A stretch of 64,000 nt of DNA, taken from the sequence record NC_052657.1; one strand, given 5' to 3'. The notes under the pieces were generated by a model that made no database searches, was not told the origin of the DNA, and saw only the letters and a list, made by a program, of their open reading frames with translations. Source of the DNA: Escherichia phage muut. The position numbers and the translations under genes were made by a program. Positions 12,026-53,932 of the stretch are shown here, one piece after another. Position 1 is the first letter of the stretch. Each line of letters begins with the position of its first letter.

Positions 12026-13759
12026 TTAGTCAACCTGGATGGTTCCCATAGTACGAAGAACCTCTACATCAACACGGTTGCGGATATCAGTAAATGTTTC
12101 ATCACGTCCTTCTACTTGTGGTGTAATAACCGTACCATCTCTGAAGATAACTTGTAACTCATTGTCTTCATCTTGGATATCTTTAAAAGAAAGATTATCC
12201 ACAAGAGAAAGTTTACCATTTGTATCCTTAACAACCTTAATAAAACCTTTTGCAGAGCGTTTACCAGGATCAGTTTTAGGCTCCTTACTTACCAAAATTT
12301 CGTGTTCACCGATGATACTACCTGTTGCTTTAACAGCAAAACCAAAAGTATCTCGTGTATTGAACTGATAAGTATAACTACCAACACCAAATACAATATT
12401 GGAAGCTGCAAAACCTTTCTTCTTCAGTCGGCGTAAGATCTCGTGTTCTCGTTCAACAGTAATAGAATCACCATAAATCATACCGATGTGCTGATCAAGA
12501 ACCTTGTAGCCTTTTCGGTTGATAGTACCACCAAACACTTCCCAAAGGATTTGAATAGAACCTACTGCTTCACAATAAGGAATCTCATAAGTTTCATCAA
12601 TACAATCAGCAACACTGCAATCCTGAAGAACATTGTAATACTTATTAACATCAGCCAAATGAACTACTTCAGTGGCTGTAGCAATACCATTATTTAAAAG
12701 GTCTTCATAGTTATCAAAAGATTCAACATTGTATCCTGCAACAACTTTAACCGGATCTCCTGAGTCTGGACGAATAACAAGACGACCATTTCGTGACATA
12801 ATGGACTCTTTCAATTCTACCAGAATGCGAGTCAAGACAGCCCAGTAATCATAAGAATCTGCTACATATGAACAAAAACCTTCTGGAACAATTTCTTCAA
12901 TATAGCGGCGAAGAAACTCTTTCTCTGCTACATAACGAAGCCCATCAACATCATCTTTAAGATGTGGGAAATGTTTCTTCAGATCTTCAACAATAGCTCC
13001 AATGTTAGTCGTTGCTACTGAATGTTCTGTTGCCGGAATAGAACCTGCAACAAACTGATCATAATCAATACCATAATAATCATGCACAGTTTCAATAGCC
13101 AGAATATTATCTGTTCCTGTGAAAGATGCCAAATGAGCGATACCACTCTTATAACCATCTTCGACATTACTTAAACCACGTAGGCTAAAATCATGACACT
13201 GGAAGTTAACGTGATCAATATTATCACACGTTGCCATCGCATATGCCATAGCAATACGCTTATACTGAAAAGCTGCTGTAGCATTAGTCATTGTCTTCCA
13301 AGTTTCATCTGACAATAGTGTTTCCACATAATTAGTTAACCAAAAGAATTTTTCTAAAGTATTATGCACAGTAAACACAGGAACACCAATAGGACACAAA
13401 ACACCTTCTGGCAGAGATCGAACTTCCAGCGGAAGATAACCTAAATCGTGCAATTCTCCCCAACATTCAGCAGAAGGAGCAGAAGCACCTAATGCATTTT
13501 TAGACATACGATAAAATTTATTTACTGCTGCACTACGAGACATTTTAAAGAAGCTGTCCCACATAGTTACAAGGGCATCGGTGACTGCTCGACGAATACC
13601 TAAAACAATCACACCACGTGCTTCACGATCTGCATAGTGTGCAAAGTTTTTATCATTACGAGGAGTTAAATTAGAGAAAATGAGTTTTGTATTTTGGTTG
13701 TACATCTGCTTGTGACCAGGCTTATACCAATCAGTAGCAAAAGGTGCAAAAATATTCAT
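12026..13759 (-). CDS. nadV: nicotinamide phosphoribosyltransferase-family enzyme (NadV/Nampt-like; possibly Namat of NARP1)
   Basis: 577 aa; resembles NadV/Nampt by eye and co-operonic with a Prs-like gene; family membership inferred, not searched. Confidence 0.65.
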   Translation of the reverse strand: MNIFAPFATDWYKPGHKQMYNQNTKLIFSNLTPRNDKNFAHYADREARGVIVLGIRRAVTDALVTMWDSFFKMSRSAAVNKFYRMSKNALGASAPSAECWGELHDLGYLPLEVRSLPEGVLCPIGVPVFTVHNTLEKFFWLTNYVETLLSDETWKTMTNATAAFQYKRIAMAYAMATCDNIDHVNFQCHDFSLRGLSNVEDGYKSGIAHLASFTGTDNILAIETVHDYYGIDYDQFVAGSIPATEHSVATTNIGAIVEDLKKHFPHLKDDVDGLRYVAEKEFLRRYIEEIVPEGFCSYVADSYDYWAVLTRILVELKESIMSRNGRLVIRPDSGDPVKVVAGYNVESFDNYEDLLNNGIATATEVVHLADVNKYYNVLQDCSVADCIDETYEIPYCEAVGSIQILWEVFGGTINRKGYKVLDQHIGMIYGDSITVEREHEILRRLKKKGFAASNIVFGVGSYTYQFNTRDTFGFAVKATGSIIGEHEILVSKEPKTDPGKRSAKGFIKVVKDTNGKLSLVDNLSFKDIQDEDNELQVIFRDGTVITPQVEGRDETFTDIRNRVDVEVLRTMGTIQVD

Positions 13760-13830
13760 AGTTATGTCTCCTTGTTTGTTAATGTGGGAGTATCTTACTA
13801 GGCATACTCCCTATTATCAACACTTATTAT

Positions 13831-14724
13831 TTAAAAATTCCACACGTATGGAGATACAATTTGTTGTTGCAAATCTGACTGATTCTTAACAAGAACACCG
13901 GAATCTTCTTGGATGTTATCTTCCCACACATTAAGAGAATGAATGCAGTCAAAGTGCTCACTTAACTCTTTAAGACCTTTAGAAAAGATACCGTGTGTAA
14001 CATATAACTCAATCTTACCTGCGTTACGAGCACGTAGCACTTTAGCCAATTCAATAAAAGTTCTACCGCCGTCACAGATATCATCTACGATCATCAGGTT
14101 ACGCTTATTGAAATCCTGTACAGAAATGTCTGTACGAACAATAGCACCTGTCGCAGTATCTCTAACCTTCTCTGCACAGAACACATCTAAAGACATTTTC
14201 TTAGATAATTTAAATATTTTCTTAAGAGCACCACCATCAGGACTAACAAGAGCAAAATTCTCCATACGTAACTTCCACTTTAAAGTTTCGTAAGCAATCT
14301 CTTCTTGAGGTATTACACAGAGTCTGTCAAACACCGCTGGAGTAACATCACTATGTGGATCAGCAACGATAACACGTGAGAAATTTAATGAATTAATTAT
14401 AGAAGCAAATGCTTTAACTCCGAATGCTTCCCCAGGTTCACACACTCTGTCTTGTCGTGCATATGGCACATACAACATGAGCAAATCAACACAATATGGT
14501 TTATGATATAGCATATTGTCCAATGCATTCTTAGTCATAACCAAAGTCATCAAGTCTTTAGCAGATCTTACTTCTAAAGAGAGTAAGATTCTGTCTGTAG
14601 CATGATTGAAACCTGATAGATTCGTATCTAGTTGAACATGTTGTTCTCCACCAGAGAATGTAAAGACTTTAACGTCTACATCAGTAACATAACAGTTAAC
14701 ACCATGTAGAATACTAACTTTCAT
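13831..14724 (-). CDS. ribose-phosphate pyrophosphokinase-family enzyme (Prs-like; possibly Adps of NARP1)
   Basis: 297 aa; PRPP-binding loop MIVDDICDGGRTF typical of Prs / type I phosphoribosyltransferases; directly upstream of nadV-like gene. Confidence 0.6.
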   Translation of the reverse strand: MKVSILHGVNCYVTDVDVKVFTFSGGEQHVQLDTNLSGFNHATDRILLSLEVRSAKDLMTLVMTKNALDNMLYHKPYCVDLLMLYVPYARQDRVCEPGEAFGVKAFASIINSLNFSRVIVADPHSDVTPAVFDRLCVIPQEEIAYETLKWKLRMENFALVSPDGGALKKIFKLSKKMSLDVFCAEKVRDTATGAIVRTDISVQDFNKRNLMIVDDICDGGRTFIELAKVLRARNAGKIELYVTHGIFSKGLKELSEHFDCIHSLNVWEDNIQEDSGVLVKNQSDLQQQIVSPYVWNF

Positions 14725-16566: not shown

Positions 16567-16760
16567 TGTTTCTTATTTATTCAGGTAAAGCCAAATACAT
16601 GCAAGGTGTAAAGCGTGTAGAAGTAGCAGATACTGTAACTATAGGAAAATCCTTTATTCTTTATTTGTTTTATATCAATGGAGAAAGATTTGCTGTTTCT
16701 AAGAAGTTGGTAGATAATGGTAAAACTTGGAAAGAAGAGAAACAGGAAGGGGGTAGATAG
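16566..16760 (+). CDS. hypothetical protein (64 aa)
   Basis: Track ORF, start overlaps upstream stop. Confidence 0.4.
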   Translation: MFLIYSGKAKYMQGVKRVEVADTVTIGKSFILYLFYINGERFAVSKKLVDNGKTWKEEKQEGGR

Positions 16761-17101
16761 TGGCTAAAATTCTTTGGTTAGACGATTTAAGAGATCCTAA
16801 AGATTATGGTTATGAGGATGCCATTTGGTTAAAATCTTTTGAGGATTGGTTATCTTTTGTTTCAGATGAAGATAATTTCAATAATATCTCAGAGATACAC
16901 TTCGATAATGATCTTGGAGAAGATCAAGAAGGATATCATGCGTTCTTAGACGTAGAATGTATGTTGTACGCGGGTGAATGGGATGCTCTTAAAACTATCT
17001 ATGTTCATACATCAAATCCTTCTGCTGCTGGTAAATATATGTTAGCTAAGGAAAATTTTATTTCATCCTATGGTGTTGAAATTAAACGTGTTAACTATTA
17101 A
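16760..17101 (+). CDS. hypothetical protein (113 aa)
   Basis: Track ORF, start overlaps upstream stop. Confidence 0.45.
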   Translation: MAKILWLDDLRDPKDYGYEDAIWLKSFEDWLSFVSDEDNFNNISEIHFDNDLGEDQEGYHAFLDVECMLYAGEWDALKTIYVHTSNPSAAGKYMLAKENFISSYGVEIKRVNY

Positions 17102-17259: not shown

Positions 17260-17619
17260 ATGTGCGCTACTAATCAACATGATATTTGTTACCAACCTCT
17301 TACCTGGATTGGTGAGGATCACTATGCTCAACGTGTTATAGTCTGCGCTGCGAATAAGTATATTCTCAATAATGGCGAAGAGTTAATTATTCCTTGTGTT
17401 AGACATGCAAATCCTGTACTATCTGCACAACTTAATGTTTTAAAAGATGCAGGATTGATTGATAAACTGTTTTGCTTACCTGATAATCAAGGGTTTATTG
17501 ATCAGTATTATAATTGGTGGAGTCGAAAAGATGCTTATATCATTGCAGATAACGCCAAACAAATTAACTACGAAAGAAATGGTCACAACAGTGAACTATT
17601 CAGCGAGGGATTATACTAA
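17257..17619 (+). CDS. hypothetical protein (120 aa)
   Basis: Track ORF; no motif recognised. Confidence 0.45.
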   Translation: MMCATNQHDICYQPLTWIGEDHYAQRVIVCAANKYILNNGEELIIPCVRHANPVLSAQLNVLKDAGLIDKLFCLPDNQGFIDQYYNWWSRKDAYIIADNAKQINYERNGHNSELFSEGLY

Positions 17620-18170
17620 TGTTTATTACAAGTGATTTGCATTTTATGCACAAACGTATCCGAGAGTTTGCTCCTGAATATCGCCCGTGGGAAGATATGG
17701 AGCATATGACAGAAGCACTGATCGAAGCATGGAATAAATGTGCCACAACACCAGGAGTAAAGATGTACCATCTTGGGGACTTCTGTTTCGGGACTGAAGA
17801 AGATACCCGTAAGATTGCTTCCCGTCTCCAAGGAGATATTACTTACTGTGTTGGGAACCATGATTACAGCAAACACAGAAAAGTGCTTGCAGAGTATGGA
17901 GAAGTTGTGTATTATGACGAAGTGAAATATCAGAAGCTGTTCTTCGTCTTAAGTCATTACCCTATGGCTGCCTGGAATAAACAAGGGCATGGATCAATCA
18001 TGCTACACGGACACTCTCACGGATCATTCCCTGATCATTTATATGGGAAAATGTTGGATGTTGGTTGGGATGCACACGGGAAAATCTTGCATTTTGACGA
18101 AATCATCTCTATTATGGATAAGCGTGATATTATTGTTGTAGATCATCATAAGATAATCAAAGGAGATTAA
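17619..18170 (+). CDS. calcineurin-like metallophosphoesterase (candidate RNA 3-prime/2-prime,3-prime-phosphatase)
   Basis: Motifs SDLHF, LGDFCFG, VGNHD, LHGHSHG; first gene of phosphoesterase-ligase-kinase trio. Confidence 0.65.
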   Translation: MFITSDLHFMHKRIREFAPEYRPWEDMEHMTEALIEAWNKCATTPGVKMYHLGDFCFGTEEDTRKIASRLQGDITYCVGNHDYSKHRKVLAEYGEVVYYDEVKYQKLFFVLSHYPMAAWNKQGHGSIMLHGHSHGSFPDHLYGKMLDVGWDAHGKILHFDEIISIMDKRDIIVVDHHKIIKGD

Positions 18171-18171
18171 G

Positions 18172-19104
18172 GTGGCTAAGTTCAATTGTGATGACCTGAT
18201 TGCAAAAGGTTTAGTGCATAAAAAAGAAGTTAAATCTGGAGAGTATGCTGGTCTTGCTGTACTTAAATACAAAAACAATGTATTCTGGGATAACTTGTGG
18301 AACGTTGACAAACGACTTTTAGATTGTCGTGGGTTGGTTGTTGACTCAGAAGACAATGTTGTTATTTGGCCTTTTACTAAAATCTTTAATCGTTTTGAAA
18401 ATGGTACAGATCTTCCAGCAGACGAAATTGTAGATGCTGTCCGTAAAGTAAACGGTTTTATGGCATCTGTAGGTGTGTACAAAGGGAAACTTGTTGTATC
18501 AACAACAGGGAGCCTAGAATCAGATTTCGCAATTATGGCAAAGAACCGTATTGTTTCCGAGTGTGACGACATAGAGTATTTCATTAAGTGGACAGAAAGT
18601 GCAAAAGCAACTTTTCTTTTTGAAATCTGTGATCCTTCTGATCCACATATTGTCGAAGAAGAACCAGGCGCATACTTAATTGGAGCAAGAATTCAAAATC
18701 TTGATGGGACAAGTTTCATGTTACCTGAAGGTGTTCTTGATGGGATTGCATCTGTTACAAAATTTAAACGTCCTGAAGTTTATCCGATGATTAAATTTTC
18801 AGATGTTGTTGAAATGTCTAAACATTGTAAACACGAAGGGTTTGTTGTTCGTGAAACAAACTATCCGTTTAACTTACTGTTAAAGATTAAGTCACCATAC
18901 TATCTTGCTAAAAAATTCCTTATGCGTGGTGGCAATAAGAAGTGGGATATGATTTGGGACAACCCAAACAATGCTAAACAAATTGTTGACGAAGAATATT
19001 ATACTTTGCTAGAATGGCTTCGAAACAACTTTACTAAGACTCAATGGGCTGCTTTAGATCCACAAGAGCGACGTAAAGAAATAGAAAACTTCTTTGGAGG
19101 CTAA
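18172..19104 (+). CDS. RNA ligase-like nucleotidyltransferase
   Basis: Motif I KVNGF, III FLFEICD, IV EGFVVRE, V LLKIKS; GTG start with AAAGGAG RBS. Confidence 0.55.
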   Translation: MAKFNCDDLIAKGLVHKKEVKSGEYAGLAVLKYKNNVFWDNLWNVDKRLLDCRGLVVDSEDNVVIWPFTKIFNRFENGTDLPADEIVDAVRKVNGFMASVGVYKGKLVVSTTGSLESDFAIMAKNRIVSECDDIEYFIKWTESAKATFLFEICDPSDPHIVEEEPGAYLIGARIQNLDGTSFMLPEGVLDGIASVTKFKRPEVYPMIKFSDVVEMSKHCKHEGFVVRETNYPFNLLLKIKSPYYLAKKFLMRGGNKKWDMIWDNPNNAKQIVDEEYYTLLEWLRNNFTKTQWAALDPQERRKEIENFFGG

Positions 19105-19509
19105 ATGAAACAACTTATCATCTTACGTGGTGTTTCAGGTGCAGGTAAATCTACAGTAGCAGAAATTATTTCTGAAGGTTATTGGCCTATCTGTGAGGCA
19201 GATCAATATCATTACACAGAAAGTGGTGTTTACGATTGGAAGCCAGAGAATGTAGGTAAAGCACACGCATGGTGTCAGAGTATTGTTCGTGATGCTATGG
19301 CATCTAATATTAAAAAGATTATTGTCTCTAACACTTCAACCACAGAGAAAGAACTTAAACCTTATTTAACTCTTGCTGAAGAGTTTGGTTATCAAGTTAT
19401 CTCTTTAGTAGTTGAAAATAGGCACGGTAACGACTCAATTCATGAGGTTCCACAACATATTCGTGATCAGCAAGAGAAACGTCTTCGCAGTTCACTTAAA
19501 CTACAATAA
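19105..19509 (+). CDS. polynucleotide 5-prime-kinase-like P-loop kinase
   Basis: ILRGVSGAGKST P-loop and later segment resembling T4 Pnk kinase domain. Confidence 0.6.
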   Translation: MKQLIILRGVSGAGKSTVAEIISEGYWPICEADQYHYTESGVYDWKPENVGKAHAWCQSIVRDAMASNIKKIIVSNTSTTEKELKPYLTLAEEFGYQVISLVVENRHGNDSIHEVPQHIRDQQEKRLRSSLKLQ

Positions 19510-20067: not shown

Positions 20068-20264
20068 GGTTAACTATGACATTTATTGAAGAACTAACGA
20101 GAATTGCAAACGCGCCTAACAGTAGTGAAGATCCTTACTTTATGGTGGATGATTACACTGGTGGTAATATTGATGATGCCTATGAACTAGGCAGACTACA
20201 CGGTGAAATTGAAATGGCTAAATGGGTTCTTTCGCAACTGGAGGTTAAAGATGAAACAAACTAA
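20061..20264 (+). CDS. hypothetical protein (67 aa)
   Basis: Track ORF; overlaps both neighbours by a few codons. Confidence 0.35.
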   Translation: MVRLTMTFIEELTRIANAPNSSEDPYFMVDDYTGGNIDDAYELGRLHGEIEMAKWVLSQLEVKDETN

Positions 20265-21366
20265 TCCTACATTGTATGGTAAAACTTCTACAGGTAAAAT
20301 TAAACAGTGGTCAGTCTATACCGAAGGTAGTGTTGTAACTGTTGCTCATGGTCAATTAGGTGGAAAGATTACTAGCAAATCTTATACAGCAGAACCTAAA
20401 AATATTGGTCGCTCAAATGAAACAACAGCAGAAGAACAAGCTGAAATAGAAGCTCTTGCCAAATGGACAAAACAACTTAAGAATGGGTATTATAAAACAA
20501 AAGAGGAAGCTGAAAACCATGTTCCTTCCACACCCATGAAATGTCAGGATTATAAAGATTATGCTGATCGTGTTTTGTTCCCAGGTTATGCACAATATAA
20601 ATTGAATGGTCTACGTTCAATGATTAACATGCAAGGTGAATGTTTATCTAAAGCTGGGGAAGTATATAAACTTCCACCTCACTGGAAAGAAATTCCAACC
20701 TTCATTAAAGAAGTAGTTGGTCATCCTCTTGATGGTGAAGTTTTTGCTGGTCTGGGTGTCCTTAGCCTTCAACAAATTAATAGTGCGTGGAAAAAGCACA
20801 ATGCTAACACACCGCTTCTTAAATATTATGTATACGATGTTCCTGTGGCATCTGTACCATTTGAGAAGAGGGTTCAAGTTTTGGCTGCTCTAAAAGAAGT
20901 TGTTGAAGATAAAGGTTTAGATGAACTTATTTGTGTAGTACATACAGAGTACATTGAAAACCAAGAACAGTTTGATGCTTTCTATGCAAAAGCTCTACAT
21001 GAGAAAGCGGAAGGTGTGGTGTATCGTAACGCACAAGGTGTTTACGAATTCGATAAACGTTCTTATGATGTTATTAAACGTAAACCACGTCAGACGCTTG
21101 AAGTTAAAGTGGTAAGTGCAAAGCGTGATAAAAATGGTGACGGGGTATTGACAGGCGAGATGGAAAATGGTAAAGTAGTCGAATTCCTGATGCGTAAGGA
21201 TTCAGATGAAACCATTAACTATCGTAAAGCAGAAAATGCCGAAATGTTAATTGGTAAATTTGTTGAGATTGAGTATGAAGAGTTTTCCGATGGTGGAATA
21301 CCTACGAAACCAACAGGTGTCCGTTTACGGGAAATGGTGGAGGGAACATGGGAGCCAAGAGAGTAG
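20251..21366 (+). CDS. ATP-dependent polynucleotide (DNA) ligase
   Basis: Start reset to ATG 20251 (GGAGG RBS); motifs KLNG, LDGEV, EGVVYRN, VIKRK and OB-like C-terminus. Confidence 0.5.
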   Translation: MKQTNPTLYGKTSTGKIKQWSVYTEGSVVTVAHGQLGGKITSKSYTAEPKNIGRSNETTAEEQAEIEALAKWTKQLKNGYYKTKEEAENHVPSTPMKCQDYKDYADRVLFPGYAQYKLNGLRSMINMQGECLSKAGEVYKLPPHWKEIPTFIKEVVGHPLDGEVFAGLGVLSLQQINSAWKKHNANTPLLKYYVYDVPVASVPFEKRVQVLAALKEVVEDKGLDELICVVHTEYIENQEQFDAFYAKALHEKAEGVVYRNAQGVYEFDKRSYDVIKRKPRQTLEVKVVSAKRDKNGDGVLTGEMENGKVVEFLMRKDSDETINYRKAENAEMLIGKFVEIEYEEFSDGGIPTKPTGVRLREMVEGTWEPRE

Positions 21367-22189: not shown

Positions 22190-22912
22190 ATGATCGAGAA
22201 TTTTTTCAAACAAGTAAAAGTGGACAATAGCTTCTTTATCAAAGCTGCCGATCAAATTGTTGCTTGGAATGCTAAGGCACGTGGTGGAGTAACTCCAGAG
22301 TTTACTCAAGAGATGTTTGAAGCTCAACTTTCTTTTGTACGAGAAGAACTTAAAGAGTTCCAAGCAGCAGCACAGGAAAATGATCACGTTGAATTACTTG
22401 ATGCAGCAGCAGATATTTTTGTGGTAGCATCCTATCTGGCATTTATGTTCTTTGGTAAAGAAGGTGTTGATAAAGCTCTGGAAATGCCGACAGGAGATGT
22501 TCTGGCAGAAAACATTTACGATGTTATCATTGAATTCGATAAAATGGTAGAAAATGACTTGCAATTTGCCTTAATGTCTCTTACACTTACCCGTATGGCA
22601 CGAGATACTTTGGTGCGTTCTGTTTATAACGAGAAGAAGGTTATGCGTGAAGTGTTGAATAGCAATGAATCCAAGTATCCTACCAAGAAGCAACTCCTGG
22701 CTATTTGGGAAACTAAGGATATTATTGAAGCTCTTGAAAAAGAGTGCGATGCTATCGAGATGCGAAGCAAAGATCGTGCAGAAGGTTCTTATACTGGGGT
22801 ACATGCTGTATATAACGAAGTTCAAAAGGTATACGTATTCTTTGATGACAAAGGTAAAATTATGAAACCATCTACCTTTGTTAAACCTAATATCGCAGCA
22901 ATCATTGCTTAA
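22190..22912 (+). CDS. MazG-like NTP pyrophosphohydrolase (tentative)
   Basis: REELKEF...DHVELLDAAADIFVVA resembles the MazG/HisE EExxE...DxxD metal-binding helix pair. Confidence 0.35.
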   Translation: MIENFFKQVKVDNSFFIKAADQIVAWNAKARGGVTPEFTQEMFEAQLSFVREELKEFQAAAQENDHVELLDAAADIFVVASYLAFMFFGKEGVDKALEMPTGDVLAENIYDVIIEFDKMVENDLQFALMSLTLTRMARDTLVRSVYNEKKVMREVLNSNESKYPTKKQLLAIWETKDIIEALEKECDAIEMRSKDRAEGSYTGVHAVYNEVQKVYVFFDDKGKIMKPSTFVKPNIAAIIA

Positions 22913-36387: not shown

Positions 36388-36395
36388 GGAGGAGT

Positions 36396-37265: not shown

Positions 37266-37277
37266 AGGGGGAATTAA

Positions 37278-44487: not shown

Positions 44488-44497
44488 GGAGAAGGGG

Positions 44498-44824
44498 ATG
44501 AAAATAACGACAGAACAGGCTTTAATAGACAAAGGAAGGGAAATCTTAGAAAGTCATTTGGAGGATATTCAAAGGACTCCAGGGTATCTCGGCTGGCGTA
44601 TACAAGAAGCCGTCGATTTTCTACCCCGTAAAAATAAAGAGATTGAAGTAAGATCTCTATTCCTCCTTGTTAAAGTAGATGGTGACGCTATATACAAAGA
44701 TGTAGCGTCTCACATTGAACAAATAGAAGAAAAAGCCTACAAAGAATTTGCAGATCTTGTTGTAGAACATAATATAGAAGGTAAAGTTAATATCTTTATA
44801 CTTATGGATTTTGAGGAGAGTTGA
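44498..44824 (+). CDS. hypothetical protein (108 aa)
   Basis: Track ORF. Confidence 0.4.
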   Translation: MKITTEQALIDKGREILESHLEDIQRTPGYLGWRIQEAVDFLPRKNKEIEVRSLFLLVKVDGDAIYKDVASHIEQIEEKAYKEFADLVVEHNIEGKVNIFILMDFEES

Positions 44825-45567
44825 TGCTAGTATATCAAGAAATTAGTGTAAAAGATGATCAAGACCTGTTTATTATTGGTGATTTACATGGTTGCTTTGA
44901 TTTGTACCAGAAAGGTGTTAATACTTTAGGTATCCGAGATCAAGATGTTGTTGTATCTTTAGGAGATCTTACAGATCGCGGCAAGCAGAATTTTCGTTGT
45001 GTTGTTGAATTCACCAGAAAGCTAAATCGTTATGGTATTCGTGGAAACCATGAAGATATGATGATTAAAGGGTTGCTAGAAGGTGATAGACGATATTACG
45101 AATGTTGGTTTCAGAACGGAGGCCATACAGTTCTAGACGAGTGTGGAGAAGAGGGTGCAACTGCTCTTGCTTTGATGCTAGAAGATTTACCTGTTGTACT
45201 TGTTGTCAATTATCGTAATATGAAACTAGGCTTTATTCACGGTGGTTATCCTTCAGTTTTGGAACATTTACCAGTGACAGAAGTTTTGCCATTTTGTTTG
45301 AATATGAATAAAGAGCAAGTTTCTCGATTCACAGAATCTTTAATGTGGGATCGTGATATGATAGATTGCGCCCTTGAAGGGATTCTTCTTCCTAGAGTTT
45401 CAGGAGTAGATTATGTATTTCACGGGCATTCTTATGTTCCTAAACCTGTAATTAGCAGTAATAGGGTATATATGGATACAGGATCTTGCTTCAATGGTAA
45501 TTTAACCTTTGCATATTTTGATGATACAAATACGTTACAATTTTATTCTACTTTAGAGGAGGACTAA
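44821..45567 (+). CDS. Ser/Thr protein phosphatase (PPP-family metallophosphatase)
   Basis: GDLHG, GDLTDRG, RGNHE motifs. Confidence 0.75.
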   Translation: MMLVYQEISVKDDQDLFIIGDLHGCFDLYQKGVNTLGIRDQDVVVSLGDLTDRGKQNFRCVVEFTRKLNRYGIRGNHEDMMIKGLLEGDRRYYECWFQNGGHTVLDECGEEGATALALMLEDLPVVLVVNYRNMKLGFIHGGYPSVLEHLPVTEVLPFCLNMNKEQVSRFTESLMWDRDMIDCALEGILLPRVSGVDYVFHGHSYVPKPVISSNRVYMDTGSCFNGNLTFAYFDDTNTLQFYSTLEED

Positions 45568-48723: not shown

Positions 48724-48848
48724 TGGAAACATTGTGGAAAGGCTGGAAGACTGCTCTGATAGCCTTTATAATTCCATTAACTTTTCTTGGTTGGTGTTTT
48801 TGGGAATTTATCTTTTGGTTAATTTCCCATATACATTGGGGGTAATAT
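48723..48848 (+). CDS. small hydrophobic protein (41 aa)
   Basis: Sub-cutoff ORF, GTG start after GGAGG RBS; one TM helix. Confidence 0.3.
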
Positions 48849-49458
48849 GACTCAAAAAGTTGCATATCAAGTAGATCGTGAAGACGGTGAAGGTAGTGTT
48901 GTAGTTTTTGATACACATGGTCTTGCAGCAAGACGCAAAGGTGCTTGTCTACTGGACATTGGTGGTGAAGATGAATACTGCACTGTACGTAGAGTAAAAG
49001 AATTTGATCAATATGCTGAAAAAGGTTTTGTACCTGCAAAAGCACTATTAGAAGCTGGATGGTGGATACCTAGTGCACATGATTATGATATTTTGGAATC
49101 AGATACAGACGATTTTAACAGTGAAGATTTTGTTTTTTCTCTGGATGAAAAATGCGTTTGGAAAGATTGGGATGAAATGGAACGCCATGCTTATTTTATA
49201 AACGAAGCATTAGATCGTAAAACTTGGTTTGAGAATACAGTTAAAGCAGCGTATCCTCAATTTACTTTTACAGAATTTTGGGGTGGCCCACACCATATTA
49301 CTCATGTGGCATACTTCGAGTTCCCAGGCTCACGCTATAAAGGTACTGTCTATTGGGATTGGGACGAGGACAAAGAACCTTCTGCTCAAGACTTCCGTTG
49401 CTATGTTTGTCAAGGTGATCAAGAAGCCCTTGACAAGTACCTTAAAAGTCTGGTATAA
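48847..49458 (+). CDS. hypothetical protein (203 aa)
   Basis: Track ORF. Confidence 0.45.
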   Translation: MTQKVAYQVDREDGEGSVVVFDTHGLAARRKGACLLDIGGEDEYCTVRRVKEFDQYAEKGFVPAKALLEAGWWIPSAHDYDILESDTDDFNSEDFVFSLDEKCVWKDWDEMERHAYFINEALDRKTWFENTVKAAYPQFTFTEFWGGPHHITHVAYFEFPGSRYKGTVYWDWDEDKEPSAQDFRCYVCQGDQEALDKYLKSLV

Positions 49459-49459
49459 T
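49430..49459 (+). promoter_or_regulatory. consensus sigma70 promoter (TTGACA-18-TATAAT) overlapping stop of upstream gene
   Basis: Perfect hexamers; followed by hairpin 49477-49495, GGAGGA RBS and ATG 49513. Confidence 0.55.
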
Positions 49460-49476
49460 CCGTAAAACTTAACCAA

Positions 49477-49499
49477 AGCCCCAAGCAGGGGCTTTATTT
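49477..49499 (+). terminator. hairpin with T-run (terminator and/or 5-prime-UTR stem-loop)
   Basis: AAGCCCC-aagca-GGGGCTT followed by TATTTG. Confidence 0.45.
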
Positions 49500-49512
49500 G
49501 TCTGGAGGATAT

Positions 49513-50046
49513 ATGGGTTTTGATGACATGTTATTATATGAGGAGGCTTGTGTGAAAGAAGCTATGGCTTTACCAGTTTTATCTATTGATATTACAACAG
49601 TAGACACTTTTTCAGATTGTGAAACGTGTGGATCGTATTCGTCTATTGTACATGAAGTTAGTGGGGATTTAGGCACTTACGAAGATGGAGATTATGCAAG
49701 TTGTTTAGGTGATAATCGAGATGGTGAAGTGGCGAATGTTGCAAACTGGATTGCTTCTAAGTTAAAAGAAAGAAATCGTCCGTTCCCTAATCTTCTTACA
49801 CCAGAAGCTATGCTTAAAGCTGAACAAGAGATGTATGATTATGGTTATAAAGTAGATTATGACTATAATGATCCTAAATATAAAAAATTGAGTGACAAGT
49901 ATTGGGAACTAGCTAATGCTTATGATAAATACTACTCTACAGAAAACATTGTTAAATTGTTTTTAGATTTTGGAGTAGAAATTAATTGGGATTTCGAAGA
50001 GGAAGAGCGTTACGACGCATCTTCTTGGGAGGACGAGGGTGAATGA
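49513..50046 (+). CDS. hypothetical acidic protein
   Basis: Start reset to ATG 49513 (GGAGGA RBS). Confidence 0.4.
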   Translation: MGFDDMLLYEEACVKEAMALPVLSIDITTVDTFSDCETCGSYSSIVHEVSGDLGTYEDGDYASCLGDNRDGEVANVANWIASKLKERNRPFPNLLTPEAMLKAEQEMYDYGYKVDYDYNDPKYKKLSDKYWELANAYDKYYSTENIVKLFLDFGVEINWDFEEEERYDASSWEDEGE

Positions 50047-50783
50047 TAGAACGAAAACCCTTACCAGATAGAGATTACTTGTTATCAAGGTTTAGTGTGG
50101 AGAATGGTCGTCTTGTTTGGAAACCTAAACCTTCTACAACAAAAGAGAACAAAAGGTGGAATAGCAGATACGCAGGGAAGATTGCAGGGACTATTGATAA
50201 AGCTGGTTACTCTCATGTCAAAATAGATGGTATTGTATACTTGGAGCACAGAGTTTGTTTTAAAATGTATCATAATTACTGTCCAGATGTTATAGACCAT
50301 GATGACGGCAATAAACTTAATAATGCGGAAAGTAATTTATTGGATAGTAACTATTTATTAAATAATAACAATAGACACGTGGATGGGTTAGAAGGTATTT
50401 ATGAAAAGGATGGTGTTTTTCTTTGGGTTATAAACTACAACCAAGAAACTTTCTCTGTTTCAGGTTTCAAAACTAAAGAGGAAGCTATTGTAGCTAGAGC
50501 TTTAGCAAAACAAGAAATTTTGAAAGGATCTTATATCAAAAAAGAAAAGAAGCGTATAGATAACACTTCAGGATTAAGCTGTGTGTTTGTGGCAACAAGA
50601 GAGAGAACATTCTTTTTCAAGTTTGTGTTTGACAAGATCACGTATTGCAAATATGGTTTCAACGATCCAGAGAGATGTGCTATAGCTCTGGAGAAACTAA
50701 GATTGAAGGTGATGAAAGAAAAATATAAACCTGCAAATAAAAGCATTTGCGAAAAATATAAGGAGGAGATTTATGCCGCGTAG
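50043..50783 (+). CDS. HNH homing endonuclease with AP2-like DNA-binding domain
   Basis: HNH motif VIDHDDGNKLNNAESNL; downstream SGFKTKEEAIVARALA AP2-like segment. Confidence 0.65.
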   Translation: MIERKPLPDRDYLLSRFSVENGRLVWKPKPSTTKENKRWNSRYAGKIAGTIDKAGYSHVKIDGIVYLEHRVCFKMYHNYCPDVIDHDDGNKLNNAESNLLDSNYLLNNNNRHVDGLEGIYEKDGVFLWVINYNQETFSVSGFKTKEEAIVARALAKQEILKGSYIKKEKKRIDNTSGLSCVFVATRERTFFFKFVFDKITYCKYGFNDPERCAIALEKLRLKVMKEKYKPANKSICEKYKEEIYAA

Positions 50784-51588
50784 AGTCATATTCATAACTG
50801 GTGCAGGACTATCTGTGGATAGCGGTATCCCAGCTTTTAGAACAGATACTTCTTCAGGGAAGGCGTTATGGTCTTCTTATGATCTTTTTGAGGTCTGTGA
50901 CATTTTCAACTTCCGTGACGGTTATCAGCAAGAACAAGGTGTTCTTGATGCTATGGGTGGTTTAGATGCAGAAGGATATAACCTCTACCGTAAAACTCAC
51001 GACTTTTACAATAAACGTCGCGTGGAATTAGAGAAAGTTGACCCGAATCCAGCACATCTTCAGATTGGAGAATGGTTCAAAAAATATGGCCCAGAACGAA
51101 TTATTAACATTACTACTAACGTGGATGACCTCCTTGAACGAGCAGGAGTAGATAGGGAAGAAGTGCTACATGTGCACGGTTTTCTTCCTGAAATTACTTT
51201 TCAAAGAAAAGCTGGACAACCTACAATTGTAAAAGATGTTGGTTATCAAGCCATAGATGTAGATGACTACCATTATGTAAAACCTAATGTAATTTTCTTT
51301 GGGGAAGCTGCTCCACTTTACACGGATATGTATCATATTTTTGATACTTTGACCATGCAAGATTTGGTTGTTGTAGTAGGATGTTCAAACCAAGTTATCA
51401 ATTTTAATTGGGAATTATTCCCTGCACTTAATATGGGTACAAAAATGATCGTTGTTAACCCAGGAATTAATTACGAAGAAACTCTTCTTTACGAAGACAG
51501 AGGAGTTTTTGTTTATCGAGAAAAGGCCGCAGATGCTTTTAGCAATCCTGCTTTCATAAAAATGATAGAAGATCATTTGACTAAGTAA
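50773..51588 (+). CDS. Sir2-family NAD-dependent deacylase / ADP-ribosyltransferase
   Basis: NAD-binding signature GAGLSVDSGIPAFR near N-terminus; 271 aa. Confidence 0.7.
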   Translation: MPRRVIFITGAGLSVDSGIPAFRTDTSSGKALWSSYDLFEVCDIFNFRDGYQQEQGVLDAMGGLDAEGYNLYRKTHDFYNKRRVELEKVDPNPAHLQIGEWFKKYGPERIINITTNVDDLLERAGVDREEVLHVHGFLPEITFQRKAGQPTIVKDVGYQAIDVDDYHYVKPNVIFFGEAAPLYTDMYHIFDTLTMQDLVVVVGCSNQVINFNWELFPALNMGTKMIVVNPGINYEETLLYEDRGVFVYREKAADAFSNPAFIKMIEDHLTK

Positions 51589-51597
51589 CTTGACCAA

Positions 51598-51621
51598 GGG
51601 GCGAAAGCCCCTTTTCTTATA
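51598..51621 (+). terminator. rho-independent terminator (GNRA loop)
   Basis: AGGGGC-gaaa-GCCCCT followed by TTTTCTTAT. Confidence 0.55.
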
Positions 51622-51631
51622 GGAGAATATT

Positions 51632-51889
51632 ATGACCACAGAACAAATCGTTAAAGACCATTTTATGATGCACTACGTTTATTACTTCAATAATAATCAA
51701 CAGAAAGGTGAGGGATTTTGTTATCTATCCGCACAACAAGGTTTTGGTATCCGTCAAGCAGATATTAACGGAGCAGTGGCTGGAATTACAAAAGGCTTGG
51801 TTGCAAACCTTAAAGATAATGTTGTTGTTGTCCCAACGTGCATCTCTTATCTCTCAACCTGCCCTGAAGAAGATTTTATGCATTCCTAA
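51632..51889 (+). CDS. hypothetical protein (85 aa)
   Basis: Last plus-strand ORF before convergent junction. Confidence 0.4.
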   Translation: MTTEQIVKDHFMMHYVYYFNNNQQKGEGFCYLSAQQGFGIRQADINGAVAGITKGLVANLKDNVVVVPTCISYLSTCPEEDFMHS

Positions 51890-51960
51890 AACCTCCTGTA
51901 ACGCATTCTAACGCACTTTTTATTTTAGTAATACGTTTCCCTATCTAATGCAAACAAAAG

Positions 51961-51992
51961 CCCCTAGAATCACTTCTAGGGGTTTTATTTTA
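51961..51992. terminator. bidirectional terminator at convergent junction
   Basis: 9-bp hairpin CCCCTAGAA-tcact-TTCTAGGGG flanked by A-run upstream and TTTTATTTT downstream. Confidence 0.65.
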
Positions 51993-52064
51993 GTCTTCTG
52001 TAAAATATCCTATGACAACAATGATAAAGATGATTAACACTACGATACTCTCTAGTAAAGTCAT

Positions 52065-52286
52065 CTATAGATCTCGTTCATATAATTCAATTATCAATTC
52101 ATCCTCTGCTGTTATCGTACCAATTTGCCAAGTATGAAGATAAACCTCTGTATAAGAGTGTATCTTACTATCTAACAAGCACAACCACGTATTGTTGCTT
52201 ACCTTTTCTTGAATATGAACCTTAACCACGAAAGGGTGAGGGTTATCTACTAAGAAACCAATACTACCTTCTACAACTACAGACAT
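52065..52286 (-). CDS. hypothetical protein (73 aa)
   Basis: Track ORF. Confidence 0.4.
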   Translation of the reverse strand: MSVVVEGSIGFLVDNPHPFVVKVHIQEKVSNNTWLCLLDSKIHSYTEVYLHTWQIGTITAEDELIIELYERDL

Positions 52287-52324
52287 AATACCTCCTATTG
52301 TTTATGCTAAGACAAATAAAAACA

Positions 52325-52353
52325 CACATACAAGAAAACCCGCCGAAGCGGGT
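52325..52353 (-). terminator. rho-independent terminator
   Basis: On minus strand ACCCGC-ttcg-GCGGGT followed by TTTCTTG, just downstream of gene 52361-52684. Confidence 0.55.
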
Positions 52354-52360
52354 TTATGTG

Positions 52361-52684
52361 TTATACAATGTGTTTTGTTTTAACGTGCGAAGATTTAAAA
52401 ATCTTATTATGTAATGAAATACAACTATCACGGAACACATAGTAGTTAACAACATCTGGTTTATCAACACAGAGTGTAGCCACAACTTTCATAGGTATAG
52501 ATACATTCTCACGAAGAGTAACACTACCTTTCAAACGTTCAGATGAAATGTGAATCAAACCTTCTTTTTCATCAATGATAACTTCTTTAACATTTTTGAA
52601 ATTATAACAAGAGTTGTCAACATAAGATACCCTTGCTTTTGTTTGCTTCTGTTTAGGACGAGAACCAGTGTTTATTTTTTGCAT
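52361..52684 (-). CDS. hypothetical protein (107 aa)
   Basis: Track ORF. Confidence 0.45.
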   Translation of the reverse strand: MQKINTGSRPKQKQTKARVSYVDNSCYNFKNVKEVIIDEKEGLIHISSERLKGSVTLRENVSIPMKVVATLCVDKPDVVNYYVFRDSCISLHNKIFKSSHVKTKHIV

Positions 52685-52692
52685 AGTTTTCC

Positions 52693-52980
52693 TTATTTGC
52701 TTTCACGAGCAAAATAATAATTTTCATATTCATTACGTGTAACGATTTCTGGATGATCAGGTTCACCGTAACTAAGTTTAATTTCAGGATACACTTTGGT
52801 GTTGAATAGACACGTAACACCTCTCATATAATATCCTGTAGGACTTAAAACAACATCATCTTCACTTACACTTGAGAATTTTATTTCACCATTAGTATCT
52901 TTGACGACAATAAGAGCATGTTCAGGCCAATCAAGATTCTCTTCTTTCAGTTTTTCATAAACTTCTTGCACTAGTTCCAT
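52693..52980 (-). CDS. hypothetical protein (95 aa)
   Basis: Track ORF with GGAGG RBS. Confidence 0.45.
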   Translation of the reverse strand: MELVQEVYEKLKEENLDWPEHALIVVKDTNGEIKFSSVSEDDVVLSPTGYYMRGVTCLFNTKVYPEIKLSYGEPDHPEIVTRNEYENYYFARESK

Positions 52981-52989
52981 ATTGCCTCC

Positions 52990-53163: not shown

Positions 53164-53214
53164 TTTACTCTCCTTTGAAAGATAGGCTGCACAGCAGTAC
53201 AGCCTTTTAAAAAA

Positions 53215-53919: not shown

Positions 53920-53932
53920 TTTTACTCCTGCT

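What the first reader, a model, noticed from the sequence alone, without database searches (positions are those of the whole stretch)
50773..51588. Sir2-family protein encoded by a phage that also carries an NAD+ module
The GAGLSVDSGIPAFR NAD-binding signature identifies a sirtuin-like enzyme. Phage sirtuin homologs may deacylate or ADP-ribosylate host proteins, and its presence alongside the NadV-like/Prs-like pair suggests the phage both consumes and regenerates NAD+.
Basis: partly seen in the sequence, partly recalled or inferred. Interest (0 to 1): 0.45.

Follow-up and report, generated by a model that had tools for sequence, protein, structure and literature searches.

The report
Zinc-less sirtuin gene of a phi92-like phage
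The gene is a real, conserved, probably active NAD-using sirtuin enzyme from a family already annotated in about a thousand phage genomes; nobody has tested what it acts on, and the idea that it works with the phage's NAD-rebuilding genes was published years ago.

Summary
Window 50773..51588 (+) encodes a 271-aa Sir2-family protein (Pfam PF02146, E=3e-20; PHROG 2162, E=1e-98) with the GAGLSVDSGIPAFR motif. The window is a phi92-like coliphage, 97-98% identical to deposited genomes whose orthologue is already labelled Sir2.

The NAD-binding residues and catalytic His135 are conserved across the clade. The predicted fold is closest to E. coli CobB and SIRT5. The four zinc-binding cysteines and the Gln of QNID are missing, and all curated CobB models score below cut-off.

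The clade is almost restricted to phages. The NadV-like/Prs-like pair exists at 12026..14724 (-) and matches NARP1, but lies 36 kb away.

In related phages the orthologue sits inside an RNA-repair cassette (cREC, RNA ligase, kinase, phosphoesterase) next to NARP1, or next to NadV/NMNAT/Nudix genes. The same cassette is in this window at 16.7-22.9 kb, without the sirtuin.

Two published readings remain about equally likely: a CobB-like lysine deacylase, or a Tpt1-like remover of RNA 2'-phosphates (Iyer et al. 2022). I marginally favour the second.

This is a known gene family and a known hypothesis with no experimental test, so interest is low to moderate.

The parts
50773..51588 (+). sir2 coding sequence, 271 aa, phage zinc-less sirtuin clade (PHROG 2162)
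50800..50841 (+). codons 10-23, GAGLSVDSGIPAFR, NAD+-binding Rossmann motif
   Evidence: G10, G12, S17 invariant and A11, S14, F22, R23 in at least 90% of sequences
51118..51132 (+). codons 116-120, NVDDL of the 'TTNVDDL' motif (equivalent of sirtuin TQNID; Asn and Asp kept, Gln replaced by Thr115)
51175..51177 (+). codon for His135, the catalytic histidine in 'LHVHG', aligned with the CobB HMHG histidine
51007..51018 (+). codons 79-82 (Y-N-K-R), equivalent of the class III sirtuin Y-x-x-R anion-binding pair ('FYNARR' in CobB)
   Evidence: alignment; Y79 invariant, R82 in most members, R83 invariant
50760..50766 (+). Shine-Dalgarno AAGGAGG, six bases before the ATG
51596..51613 (+). terminator-like GC hairpin plus T-run directly after the sir2 stop codon
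49430..49459 (+). perfect sigma-70 consensus promoter match (TTGACA-18-TATAAT with TG, 12/12), probable start of the p182-HNH-sir2 unit
   Evidence: consensus match only
49498..50046 (+). p182 (PHROG 9509, function unknown); in phi92-like phages without the HNH gene its end overlaps the sir2 start
50043..50783 (+). HNH homing-endonuclease gene inserted between p182 and sir2; overlaps the sir2 start by 11 nt
48847..49458 (+). p203 (PHROG 8514, function unknown), upstream neighbour of sir2 conserved in two myophage lineages down to 30% identity
12026..13759 (-). NadV/Nampt-like gene, candidate Namat of NARP1
13831..14724 (-). Prs-like gene, candidate Adps of NARP1
16760..17101 (+). cREC (cyclic-phosphate processing receiver domain, PF20274); directly adjacent to Sir2 in Vequintavirinae-type and jumbo phages
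17619..18170 (+). calcineurin-like phosphoesterase of the RNA-repair cassette
18172..19104 (+). T4 Rnl1-type RNA ligase
19105..19509 (+). kinase-only polynucleotide kinase (134 aa); in Mydovirus relatives Sir2 lies between this gene and the DNA ligase
22190..22912 (+). MazG-like pyrophosphohydrolase, downstream member of the cassette in relatives

Best explanation
Shown: the gene encodes a folded, selected and probably catalytically competent Sir2-fold enzyme of a phage-restricted, zinc-less sirtuin clade. Like all sirtuins it should bind NAD+, expel nicotinamide and join the ADP-ribose C1'' to an oxygen nucleophile. His135 would then help the ribose 2''-OH attack the attached group. Inferred, and only marginally favoured: the acceptor is a phosphate rather than an acyl-lysine. 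On this reading the enzyme is a functional analogue of Tpt1/KptA. It would remove a 2'-phosphate left on broken or re-ligated tRNA/RNA and release nicotinamide plus ADP-ribose-1'',2''-cyclic phosphate. It would act with the phage's cREC, metallophosphoesterase, polynucleotide kinase and Rnl1 ligase (16.7-19.5 kb). The phosphoesterases could convert the ADP-ribose by-product to ADPR, and the NARP1 pair (12.0-14.7 kb) could rebuild NAD+ from ADPR and nicotinamide. This is the prediction of Iyer et al. 2022 (PMC9503650). The neighbourhood pattern behind it was reproduced here independently. In this phage the sirtuin gene is not in the cassette; it sits in its own unit (p182-HNH-sir2) 31 kb downstream.
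For: Catalytic competence: Pfam and PHROG matches. GAGxS...FR, N116, D118, H135-G136, FGE (E178) and N229 are conserved across 51 members down to 28% identity. The AF2 model has pLDDT 89.8 and pTM 0.87 and matches CobB with TM 0.71/0.84. dN/dS is about 0.1-0.2. Against a plain deacylase: all four Zn cysteines and the QNID Gln are lost, and CobB NCBIfam models reach at most 96 bits against cut-offs of 221-395. Context: in rV5-like DrSchubert the order is RNA ligase - cREC - Sir2 - MazG. In Mydovirus BIS47 it is NARP1 pair | phosphoesterase - RNA ligase - cREC - kinase - Sir2 - DNA ligase - MazG. Window 12-23 kb has the same layout without Sir2. cREC lies within 0.3-1.7 kb of Sir2 in nearly all of the 23 loci that have it, from two very divergent groups, including Nudix-cREC fusions in jumbo phages. 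In T5-like phages a HAD_SAK_2 'RNA repair' phosphatase lies about 1 kb downstream of Sir2 in all 29 loci of three clusters. Overall 19 of 34 other Sir2 clusters have such a phosphate-end-processing gene within 10 kb. Chemistry (established mechanisms, my inference): the sirtuin and Tpt1 reactions both run through O-attack on C1'' followed by 2''-OH attack that gives a 1'',2''-cyclic species. The conserved Y79/R82-R83 anion-binding pair could hold a phosphate.
Against: No biochemical test exists for any member (literature searches). No sirtuin has been shown to act on RNA phosphates. The clade is acidic (median pI 4.9, net charge about -14), which is unusual for an RNA-binding enzyme. The closest sequences and structures are all lysine deacylases, and the class III Y-x-x-R motif is retained. 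Rnl1-type ligases were found in only 15 Salmonella phage records against 289 with Sir2, so most T5-like carriers appear to lack an Rnl1-type ligase. Many Rnl1 phages (Pseudomonas, Streptomyces) appear to lack Sir2, since neither genus is among the ten commonest for Sir2. T4-type end healing does not produce a 2'-phosphate (own knowledge). The function of cREC is itself only predicted. In this window the gene is 31 kb from the cassette.
Confidence: 0.35

Rival explanations
1. CobB-like NAD+-dependent protein lysine deacylase (deacetylase or desuccinylase). It is made early in infection and removes acyl groups from host or phage proteins. Nicotinamide, a sirtuin inhibitor, and O-acyl-ADPR/ADPR are cleared and recycled by NadV/NARP and Nudix enzymes. 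This is essentially the first reader's reading and that of PMC5107563.
For: Best PDB sequence hits are Sir2Af2 and CobB (E about 4e-14). Best fold hits are CobB, Sir2Af1 and SIRT5 (E 1e-15, TM 0.71/0.84). Catalytic His, the FGE loop and the class III Y79-x-x-R82 pair are present. An acidic enzyme suits basic lysine-rich substrates. NadV adjacency in 14 of 34 clusters and Nudix adjacency in jumbo phages fit the well-known Nampt-sirtuin coupling and Nudix hydrolysis of O-acyl-ADPR (own knowledge). It explains carriage by T5-like phages that lack an RNA ligase.
Against: All four Zn-ligand cysteines are absent; every validated deacylase known to me has them. The QNID Gln is lost, and the CobB 'VYP' substrate loop is 'VIN' here. 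Scores are below all curated CobB cut-offs. It does not explain the repeated adjacency to cREC, HAD_SAK, 2H and RNA ligase genes. No acetyltransferase or target gene is linked.
Confidence: 0.3
2. NAD+ glycohydrolase, or ADP-ribosyltransferase acting on a host protein or small molecule. It would be used for host takeover, superinfection exclusion or counter-defence, like the zinc-less SIR2 domains of bacterial defence systems, with NARP protecting the phage's own NAD+ supply.
For: The zinc-less SIR2 domains known to me (ThsA, DSR1/2, SIR2-HerA; own knowledge and PMC12700824) process NAD+ rather than deacylate. The clade is phage-restricted: only 2 of 185,579 species genomes have a relative. There is a likely early promoter. 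It co-localises with NAD/ADPR-metabolising genes including NADAR and an Acb1-like 2H enzyme.
Against: No PADLOC defence-SIR2 model matches. No defence SIR2 structure appears among the 50 best fold matches, which are all deacylase sirtuins. It is a single-domain protein with no sensor or partner such as HerA, TIR, SLOG or Macro nearby. An unregulated NADase would work against the phage's own NARP1. Sirtuin chemistry cannot cleave the O-glycosidic Thoeris signals (own knowledge).
Confidence: 0.12
3. Decaying or non-functional passenger gene, carried along by recombination with the neighbouring homing endonuclease.
For: The 5' two-thirds of the gene is a divergent allele next to an inserted HNH gene. 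The gene has moved out of the cassette where relatives keep it.
Against: The ORF is intact with a strong ribosome-binding site. Every motif is conserved in the divergent allele, dN/dS is about 0.1-0.2, the fold is predicted with confidence, and orthologues occur in 982 phage records.
Confidence: 0.03

Closest known systems
Phage Sir2-like proteins (PHROG 2162): phi92 gp038, T5-like 'Sir2-like protein', rV5 gp080, KVP40/phiSt2 Sir2/CobB
   Same: Full-length match (E=1e-98). 98.5% identical to the BME3 protein and 70-79% identical to those of other phi92-like and Phapecoctavirus phages (phi92-like PaulScherrer 72%). 52-59% identical to T5-like, 48% to rV5-like and 36-40% to KVP40-like and jumbo phage proteins. 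Same zinc-less architecture, noted earlier for KVP40/phiSt2 in PMC5107563.
   Different: This allele is a mosaic. Its 5' ~550 nt is only 60-70% identical to the common phi92-type allele, and it lies next to an HNH insertion. Only six records have a protein at least 95% identical.
E. coli CobB / human SIRT5 (class III sirtuin lysine deacylases)
   Same: Rossmann plus small-domain fold (TM 0.71/0.84). GAGxS, PNxxH, N-x-D, HG and FGE motifs and the Y-x-x-R pair are shared.
   Different: About 23% identity. No Cys4 zinc site. Gln of QNID is Thr. A variable 25-residue insert (residues about 50-75) is present. Scores are below the curated family cut-offs. Activity is untested.
Tpt1/KptA RNA 2'-phosphotransferase
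   Same: Proposed to work alike: NAD+-dependent removal of an RNA 2'-phosphate, giving nicotinamide and ADPR-1'',2''-cyclic phosphate. Genomic association with RNA ligase, kinase and phosphoesterases (PMC9503650).
   Different: No sequence or fold relationship; only SIR2 was detected. The resemblance is a functional hypothesis, not membership.
Defence-associated SIR2 NADases (ThsA, DSR1/2, SIR2-HerA, SPARSA)
   Same: SIR2 fold without a zinc module; role in phage-host conflict over NAD+.
   Different: No PADLOC model matches. No sensor or partner domains. Encoded by the phage, not the host. Fold is closest to deacylases.
NARP1 (Adps + Namat; Osterman et al., 10.1101/2024.02.11.579819)
   Same: The window's Prs-like and NadV-like genes are adjacent and co-oriented like the NARP1 operon. 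The Prs-like protein is 35-40% identical to prs-like genes of 85-88-kb phages that I take to be Felix O1-type, the group of Bas63 (assignment from memory, not checked).
   Different: This concerns the companion module, not the sirtuin. No paper found links NARP1 functionally to a phage sirtuin. Activity and the Namat selectivity clamp were not tested here.

Membership tests
Sir2/sirtuin superfamily (Pfam PF02146) | Profile match above the curated gathering score | tested here: met
   73.3 bits against 24, E=3e-20, residues 10-208
Sir2/sirtuin superfamily (Pfam PF02146) | NAD+-binding Rossmann motifs (GAGxS...GIPxFR, GxS, terminal N) | tested here: met
   GAGLSVDSGIPAFR at residues 10-23; G203-C-S205; N229. 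Conserved in 45-51 homologues
Sir2/sirtuin superfamily (Pfam PF02146) | Catalytic His of the HG motif, and Asn/Asp of (T)QNID | tested here: met
   H135-G136 invariant and aligned to CobB HMHG. N116 invariant and D118 present in at least 90% of sequences
Sir2/sirtuin superfamily (Pfam PF02146) | Gln of the QNID motif | tested here: not met
   'TTNVDD': Thr115 (Ala in jumbo and KVP40-like members) replaces Gln across the clade
Sir2/sirtuin superfamily (Pfam PF02146) | Cys4 zinc-binding module in the small domain | tested here: not met
   Positions aligned to Sir2Af2 CLDC...CRKC read ITFQ...VDDY. The whole protein has two Cys
Sir2/sirtuin superfamily (Pfam PF02146) | Sirtuin fold | tested here: met
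   AF2 pLDDT 89.8 and pTM 0.87. Foldseek best hit CobB 1s5p, E=1e-15, TM 0.71/0.84
Class III sirtuin deacylases (CobB/SIRT5) | Y-x-x-R pair that binds acidic acyl groups | tested here: met
   Y79-N-K-R82 aligned to CobB FYNARR. Y79 invariant; R82 replaced by Leu in BF- and RaK2-type members; R83 invariant
Class III sirtuin deacylases (CobB/SIRT5) | Score above curated NCBIfam CobB/deacylase cut-offs | tested here: not met
   Best 95.9 bits against a cut-off of 243; others 41-81 bits against 221-395
Class III sirtuin deacylases (CobB/SIRT5) | NAD+-dependent lysine deacylase activity | not testable with these tools
   Needs enzyme assays. No published assay of any clade member was found
Phage Sir2 clade (PHROG 2162) | Full-length profile match | tested here: met
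   E=1.2e-98, residues 2-270 against profile 10-270 of 277
Phage Sir2 clade (PHROG 2162) | Phage-restricted distribution | tested here: met
   982 phage records. All named sources among the top 120 hits are phages or phage-like contigs. Only 2 loci in one genome per 185,579 species; one is a T4-like phage contig and the other has a bacterial-looking neighbour (HlyD-like)
Defence-associated SIR2 NADases (ThsA, DSR, SIR2-HerA, SPARSA) | Match to defence-system SIR2 models | tested here: not met
   0 PADLOC families at E<=1
Defence-associated SIR2 NADases (ThsA, DSR, SIR2-HerA, SPARSA) | Fused or adjacent sensor or partner (SLOG, HerA, TIR, APAZ-pAgo) | tested here: not met
   Single SIR2 domain in 271 aa. 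Neighbours are p182, HNH and p85, with no such domains
SirTM (macrodomain-linked sirtuin ADP-ribosyltransferases) | Adjacent Macro-domain gene | tested here: not met
   No Macro domain in the flanking ORFs 47734-53964
Tpt1/KptA RNA 2'-phosphotransferase | Homology to the Tpt1/KptA fold | tested here: not met
   The only Pfam family above its cut-off is SIR2 (LupA at E=0.14 is noise), and the top fold hits are all sirtuins. 'Works like' is a hypothesis only
Tpt1/KptA RNA 2'-phosphotransferase | NAD+-dependent 2'-phosphate removal yielding ADPR-1'',2''-cyclic phosphate | not testable with these tools
   Needs biochemistry or tpt1 complementation
NARP1 (companion NAD+ module) | Adjacent, co-oriented prs-like (Adps) and nampt-like (Namat) genes | tested here: met
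   13831..14724 and 12026..13759, both on the - strand, 71-nt gap. Pfam, PHROG and NCBIfam matches
NARP1 (companion NAD+ module) | Namat adenine 'selectivity clamp' (PMC12774641) and ADPR-PP synthesis | not tested
   No reference sequences were available for residue mapping; activity needs assays

The most novel reading that the evidence does not exclude
The phage-restricted zinc-less sirtuins are the first sirtuins that act on nucleic-acid phosphates. They would be Tpt1 analogues that, with cREC, a kinase, a phosphoesterase and Rnl1, form a split 'yeast-type' tRNA healing and sealing pathway against host anticodon nucleases. Their nicotinamide and ADPR-cyclic-phosphate by-products would be recycled to NAD+ by NARP1 or NARP2. 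RNA repair and NAD+ reconstitution would then be one integrated counter-defence module.
Probability: 0.25. Interest if true: 0.65.

Novelty: already known. Interest (0 to 1): 0.27.

Why it matters
About a thousand large virulent phages of enterobacteria and vibrios, including the therapy-relevant T5-, rV5-, phi92- and KVP40-like groups, keep this enzyme, and no one has measured what it does. Suppose it repairs RNA or otherwise consumes NAD+ in step with the phage's NAD+-rebuilding pathways. It would then tie two active areas together: tRNA-targeting and NAD+-depleting bacterial immunity. It would also add a new reaction to sirtuin chemistry. If it is a plain deacylase, it would be a rare case of a phage rewriting host protein acylation. 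This window adds no new gene or idea. It does offer a natural genotype in which the sirtuin is unlinked from the RNA-repair/NARP1 island, which is useful for genetic dissection.

Tried and rejected
- PADLOC scan for defence-type SIR2: no hit.
- Neighbours as clues. p182 and p190 are both labelled 'putative aminoacyl-tRNA synthetase' in BASEL records. They are not paralogues and have no meaningful PDB sequence relatives.
- p203, the most conserved upstream neighbour. It has only 23 homologues, all from phage-like contigs, and an AF2 model with pLDDT 81. It has no significant PDB fold match, best E=0.5, so this was a dead end.
- A Sir2 remnant in the 'empty slot' between the kinase and DNA ligase genes (19.5-20.2 kb), or elsewhere in the window: none found.
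- Cellular relatives as independent context: only two loci, one of them a phage contig.
- Experimental literature on any phage sirtuin: none found in five searches. BASEL, NARP1, NARP3, RyR and jumbo-phage papers do not discuss it.
- Mapping the Namat selectivity clamp was not possible without reference sequences.
- Rejected idea: that the enzyme degrades Thoeris-type cyclic ADPR signals. Sirtuin chemistry needs the nicotinamide leaving group (own knowledge).
Full report
**Observation.** Window 50773..51588 (+) is an ATG-started ORF of 271 aa. It has a strong Shine-Dalgarno sequence (AAGGAGG, 50760-50766) and a GC hairpin plus T-run at 51596-51613 directly after the stop. The protein matches Pfam SIR2 (PF02146) at 73.3 bits against a cut-off of 24 (E=3e-20). 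It matches PHROG 2162 'Sir2 (NAD-dependent deacetylase)' over its full length (E=1.2e-98).

**Source of the window.** Positions 49000-53000 are 97-98% identical to phi92-like myophages (Stephanstirmvirinae, Justusliebigvirus). These include Serratia phage KKP_3264 and Escherichia phages KKE7M and BME3. In those records the orthologue is already labelled 'Sir2-like', 'sirtuin family protein' or 'NAD-dependent deacetylase'. tblastn finds relatives in 982 phage records:
- phi92-like and Phapecoctavirus phages, 70-99% identity
- T5-like phages, 52-59%
- Mydovirus and rV5-like phages, 48-55%
- KVP40-like vibriophages and jumbo phages such as Serratia BF and RaK2, 28-40%

In the 5.8-billion-protein collection, every named source among the top 120 hits is a phage or phage-like contig. 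A scan of one genome for each of 185,579 bacterial and archaeal species found only two relatives. One of these sits on a T4-like phage contig binned into a MAG. The clade is therefore essentially restricted to phages.

In alignments of 14, 45 and 51 members down to 28% identity, the following are invariant or nearly so:
- G10-A-G12, S14, S17 and F22-R23 of the Rossmann motif
- P91-N92..H95
- N116 and D118 of 'TTNVDD', the sirtuin TQNID equivalent
- H135-G136
- K170-P171, F176-G-E178, G203..S205 and N229

HMMER alignments place His135 on the catalytic His of CobB (HMHG) and Sir2Af2. An AlphaFold2 model is confident (pLDDT 89.8, pTM 0.87). Its best PDB fold matches are E. coli CobB (E=1e-15, TM 0.71/0.84), then Sir2Af1 and SIRT5. 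The class III Tyr-x-x-Arg pair is present as Y79-N-K-R82, aligned to CobB FYNARR.

Comparison with other alleles gives dN/dS of about 0.1-0.2, with synonymous sites saturated in the divergent part. The gene is real, selected and probably catalytically competent.

**How it departs from validated sirtuin deacylases.**
- The four zinc-ligand cysteines are absent. Positions aligned to Sir2Af2 CLDC...CRKC read ITFQ...VDDY. This holds across the whole clade and was noted earlier for KVP40 and phiSt2 (PMC5107563).
- The Gln of QNID is Thr or Ala.
- The CobB 'VYP' substrate loop is 'VIN'.
- All NCBIfam CobB/deacylase models score 41-96 bits against cut-offs of 221-395.
- No PADLOC defence-SIR2 model matches.
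- The proteins are acidic, with median pI 4.9 and net charge about -14.

**The NAD+ module.** The NadV-like gene (12026..13759, -, 577 aa) and the Prs-like gene (13831..14724, -, 297 aa) are adjacent and co-oriented. This is the signature of NARP1 (Adps + Namat), which rebuilds NAD+ from ADPR and nicotinamide and counters NAD+-depleting defences (10.1101/2024.02.11.579819). The Prs-like protein is 35-40% identical to prs-like genes of 85-88-kb phages. I take these to be Felix O1-type, the group of the characterised phage Bas63, but that assignment is from memory and was not checked. The pair lies 36-39 kb from sir2.

**Surroundings and comparative context.** Next to NARP1 and a 15-tRNA cluster (8242-11279) the window carries a complete predicted RNA-end-repair set:
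- cREC 'cyclic-phosphate processing receiver' domain, 16760..17101
- calcineurin-like phosphoesterase, 17619..18170
- T4 Rnl1-type RNA ligase, 18172..19104
- kinase-only polynucleotide kinase, 19105..19509
- ATP-dependent DNA ligase, 20203..21366
- MazG-like pyrophosphohydrolase, 22190..22912

In Klebsiella Mydovirus BIS47 the same layout contains the sirtuin. The order there is NARP1 pair (opposite strand) | phosphoesterase - RNA ligase - cREC - kinase - Sir2 - DNA ligase - MazG. In rV5-like DrSchubert the order is RNA ligase - cREC - Sir2 - MazG-like. In the window, the slot between the kinase and DNA ligase genes holds no Sir2 remnant. The gene instead sits 31 kb downstream.

I collected 76 IMG/VR loci and annotated phage loci, and searched them with iterative profiles. 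Grouping Sir2 at 75% identity gave 35 clusters, 34 besides the window's own.
- 14 of 34 have a NadV-like gene within 10 kb. Four of these also have Adps (NARP1 type) and ten have an NMNAT-like gene (NARP2 type).
- 19 of 34 have a cREC, Rnl1, HAD_SAK, metallophosphoesterase or 2H gene within 10 kb.
- cREC lies within 0.3-1.7 kb of Sir2 in nearly all of the 23 loci that have it. These span Vequintavirinae-type and jumbo phages, and in the jumbo phages cREC is often a Nudix-cREC fusion.
- All 29 T5-like loci in three clusters have a HAD_SAK_2 'Swiss-army-knife RNA repair' phosphatase about 1 kb downstream.
- The T4-like contig L086 has NADAR - (one ORF) - NadV - (small ORF) - Sir2.

In phi92-like and Phapecoctavirus phages, and in a further ~140-kb myophage group, the constant neighbours differ. 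They are p203 directly upstream, at 30% identity or more. A lambda-phosphatase-like enzyme (44821..45567) and p190 lie 4-8 kb away.

**What the associations do and do not show.** They are recurrent but partial. Rnl1-type ligases occur in only 15 Salmonella phage records against 289 with Sir2. Most T5-like carriers therefore appear to lack an Rnl1-type ligase. Many Rnl1 phages (Pseudomonas, Streptomyces) appear to lack Sir2.

**Local organisation.** A perfect sigma-70 consensus match (TTGACA-18-TATAAT with TG, 12/12) lies at 49430-49459. Together with the terminator-like hairpin at 51596-51613 it frames a p182-HNH-sir2 unit. These are consensus matches only.

Relative to phi92-like PaulScherrer, the flanks are 97-98% identical. 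The HNH endonuclease gene (50043..50783) is an insertion between p182 and sir2. In PaulScherrer those two genes overlap. The first ~550 nt of sir2 are only 60-70% identical, while the last ~250 nt return to 97-98%. The allele here is thus a recombinant next to a homing endonuclease, yet it keeps every motif.

**Mechanism.** Three things are shown:
- a selected Sir2-fold protein with an intact NAD+ site and general base
- no zinc module
- phage-restricted distribution, with repeated physical linkage to NAD+ salvage and to phosphate- or cyclic-phosphate-processing genes

Two published readings fit these facts.

- For: closest sequences and structures, the Y-x-x-R pair, the FGE loop, the acidic charge, NadV/Nudix linkage, and carriage by phages without an RNA ligase.
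- Against: the lost zinc site and Gln, sub-threshold family scores, and no explanation for cREC, HAD_SAK, 2H or RNA ligase adjacency.

(B) *Tpt1/KptA-like removal of RNA 2'-phosphates* (Iyer et al. 2022, PMC9503650; cREC concept in PMC7824862).
- For: the multi-lineage neighbourhoods reproduced here. There is also a chemical parallel, which is my inference from the established mechanisms. Both reactions start with O-attack on C1'' of NAD+ and proceed by 2''-OH attack to a 1'',2''-cyclic species. The His and an anion-binding Tyr/Arg pair are kept.
- Against: no precedent, the acidic protein, T5-like carriers without Rnl1, and the fact that T4-type end healing does not produce a 2'-phosphate.

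I put B at about 0.35 and A at about 0.30. An NADase or other ADP-ribosyl transfer is at about 0.12, and a non-functional gene at about 0.03. In either main reading the enzyme releases nicotinamide and an ADPR derivative. The phage's phosphoesterases and NARP1 could return these to NAD+. NARP1's proven role is counter-defence.

**Comparison with known families and novelty.** The protein belongs to the Sir2 superfamily and to the phage clade PHROG 2162. It is not a member of any curated CobB family, of the defence SIR2 families, of SirTM (no Macro partner), or of Tpt1.

The gene, its annotation, the absence of zinc, the link to NAD+ salvage and the RNA-repair hypothesis are all in the literature. 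No experimental characterisation of any phage member was found. The finding is therefore already known.

What this analysis adds is modest:
- a quantified neighbourhood survey
- synteny showing that the sirtuin has been displaced from the RNA-repair/NARP1 island in phi92-like phages
- the mosaic, HNH-associated allele

**Verdict.**
- Observation: confirmed.
- Interpretation: partly supported.
- Novelty: already known.
- Interest: about 0.27.
- Most novel reading not excluded: a nucleic-acid-phosphate-directed sirtuin integrated with NAD+ reconstitution, at about 0.25 probability.

Noticed in passing
window 50043-51330: An HNH homing-endonuclease gene is inserted between p182 and sir2. Only the adjoining 5' ~550 nt of sir2 are divergent (60-70% nt against PaulScherrer), while both flanks and the 3' 250 nt of sir2 are 97-98% identical. 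This looks like a recombination or co-conversion tract. Only six phage records carry this Sir2 allele at 95% protein identity or more; by match coverage, three of them appear to carry the HNH gene.
   Followed up: partly
window 8242-22912: A compact island holds 15 tRNA genes, the NARP1-type pair, cREC, a metallophosphoesterase, an Rnl1 RNA ligase, a kinase-only PNK, a DNA ligase and a MazG-like gene. It is syntenic with Mydovirus and rV5-like phages, where the Sir2 gene sits inside it. Here the slot between the kinase and DNA ligase genes has no Sir2 remnant.
   Followed up: yes
window 49430-49495: A perfect 12/12 sigma-70 consensus match with an extended -10 TG overlaps the end of p203. It is followed at once by a bidirectional terminator-like hairpin (49475-49495), just upstream of p182. 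Having a hairpin downstream of the promoter is odd: it could be a 5' stabiliser, an attenuator or just the p203 terminator. Terminator-like sites are enriched in 48.6-52.4 kb (10 found against 2.1 expected).
   Followed up: no
window 48847-49458 (p203): p203 is a function-unknown protein (PHROG 8514) that stays directly upstream of Sir2 in two myophage lineages down to 30% identity. It has only 23 homologues in the 5.8-billion-protein set, a fairly confident AF2 model (pLDDT 81) and no PDB fold match.
   Followed up: partly
window 43915-45567: p190 (function unknown) and a lambda/PrpA-like Ser/Thr-type metallophosphatase (44821..45567; NCBIfam PRK11439 E=5e-27, below cut-off) stay within 4-8 kb of Sir2 in the phi92-like group and in a second ~140-kb myophage group, on either strand.
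   Followed up: partly
L005 (Serratia phage BF) 812-6668: An NMNAT-like gene, NadV, a 2H phosphoesterase, Sir2 and a Nudix-cREC fusion form one co-oriented cluster. The 2H protein, annotated 'RNA ligase', hits the anti-CBASS Acb1 family (PF23474, E=3.6e-15). These 'RNA repair' neighbours could instead degrade cyclic-nucleotide immune signals.
   Followed up: no
L086 4658-11660 (contig binned in a Bacilli MAG): A T4-like phage contig (endonuclease VII, NrdD, NrdG) has NADAR - unknown ORF - NadV - small ORF - Sir2. This is an independent NAD/ADPR cluster around a 41%-identical Sir2, apparently outside the enterobacterial phages.
   Followed up: partly
phage records MG065639, MG065656, MG065689 and others: Several GenBank records named 'Campylobacter phage' (A150, C3, A110a and others; some 146,366 bp) are 97-99% identical to E. 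coli phi92-like phages. Others match T5- and rV5-like Sir2 genes. They are probably mislabelled or contaminant assemblies.
   Followed up: no
window 35398-38659 and 47734-48723: Reading across from the PaulScherrer annotation, the window carries a four-gene dTDP-rhamnose biosynthesis set. The window's own Pfam match shows a Dcm-type C5 cytosine methyltransferase. Both are unusual auxiliary functions upstream of the sirtuin unit.
   Followed up: no
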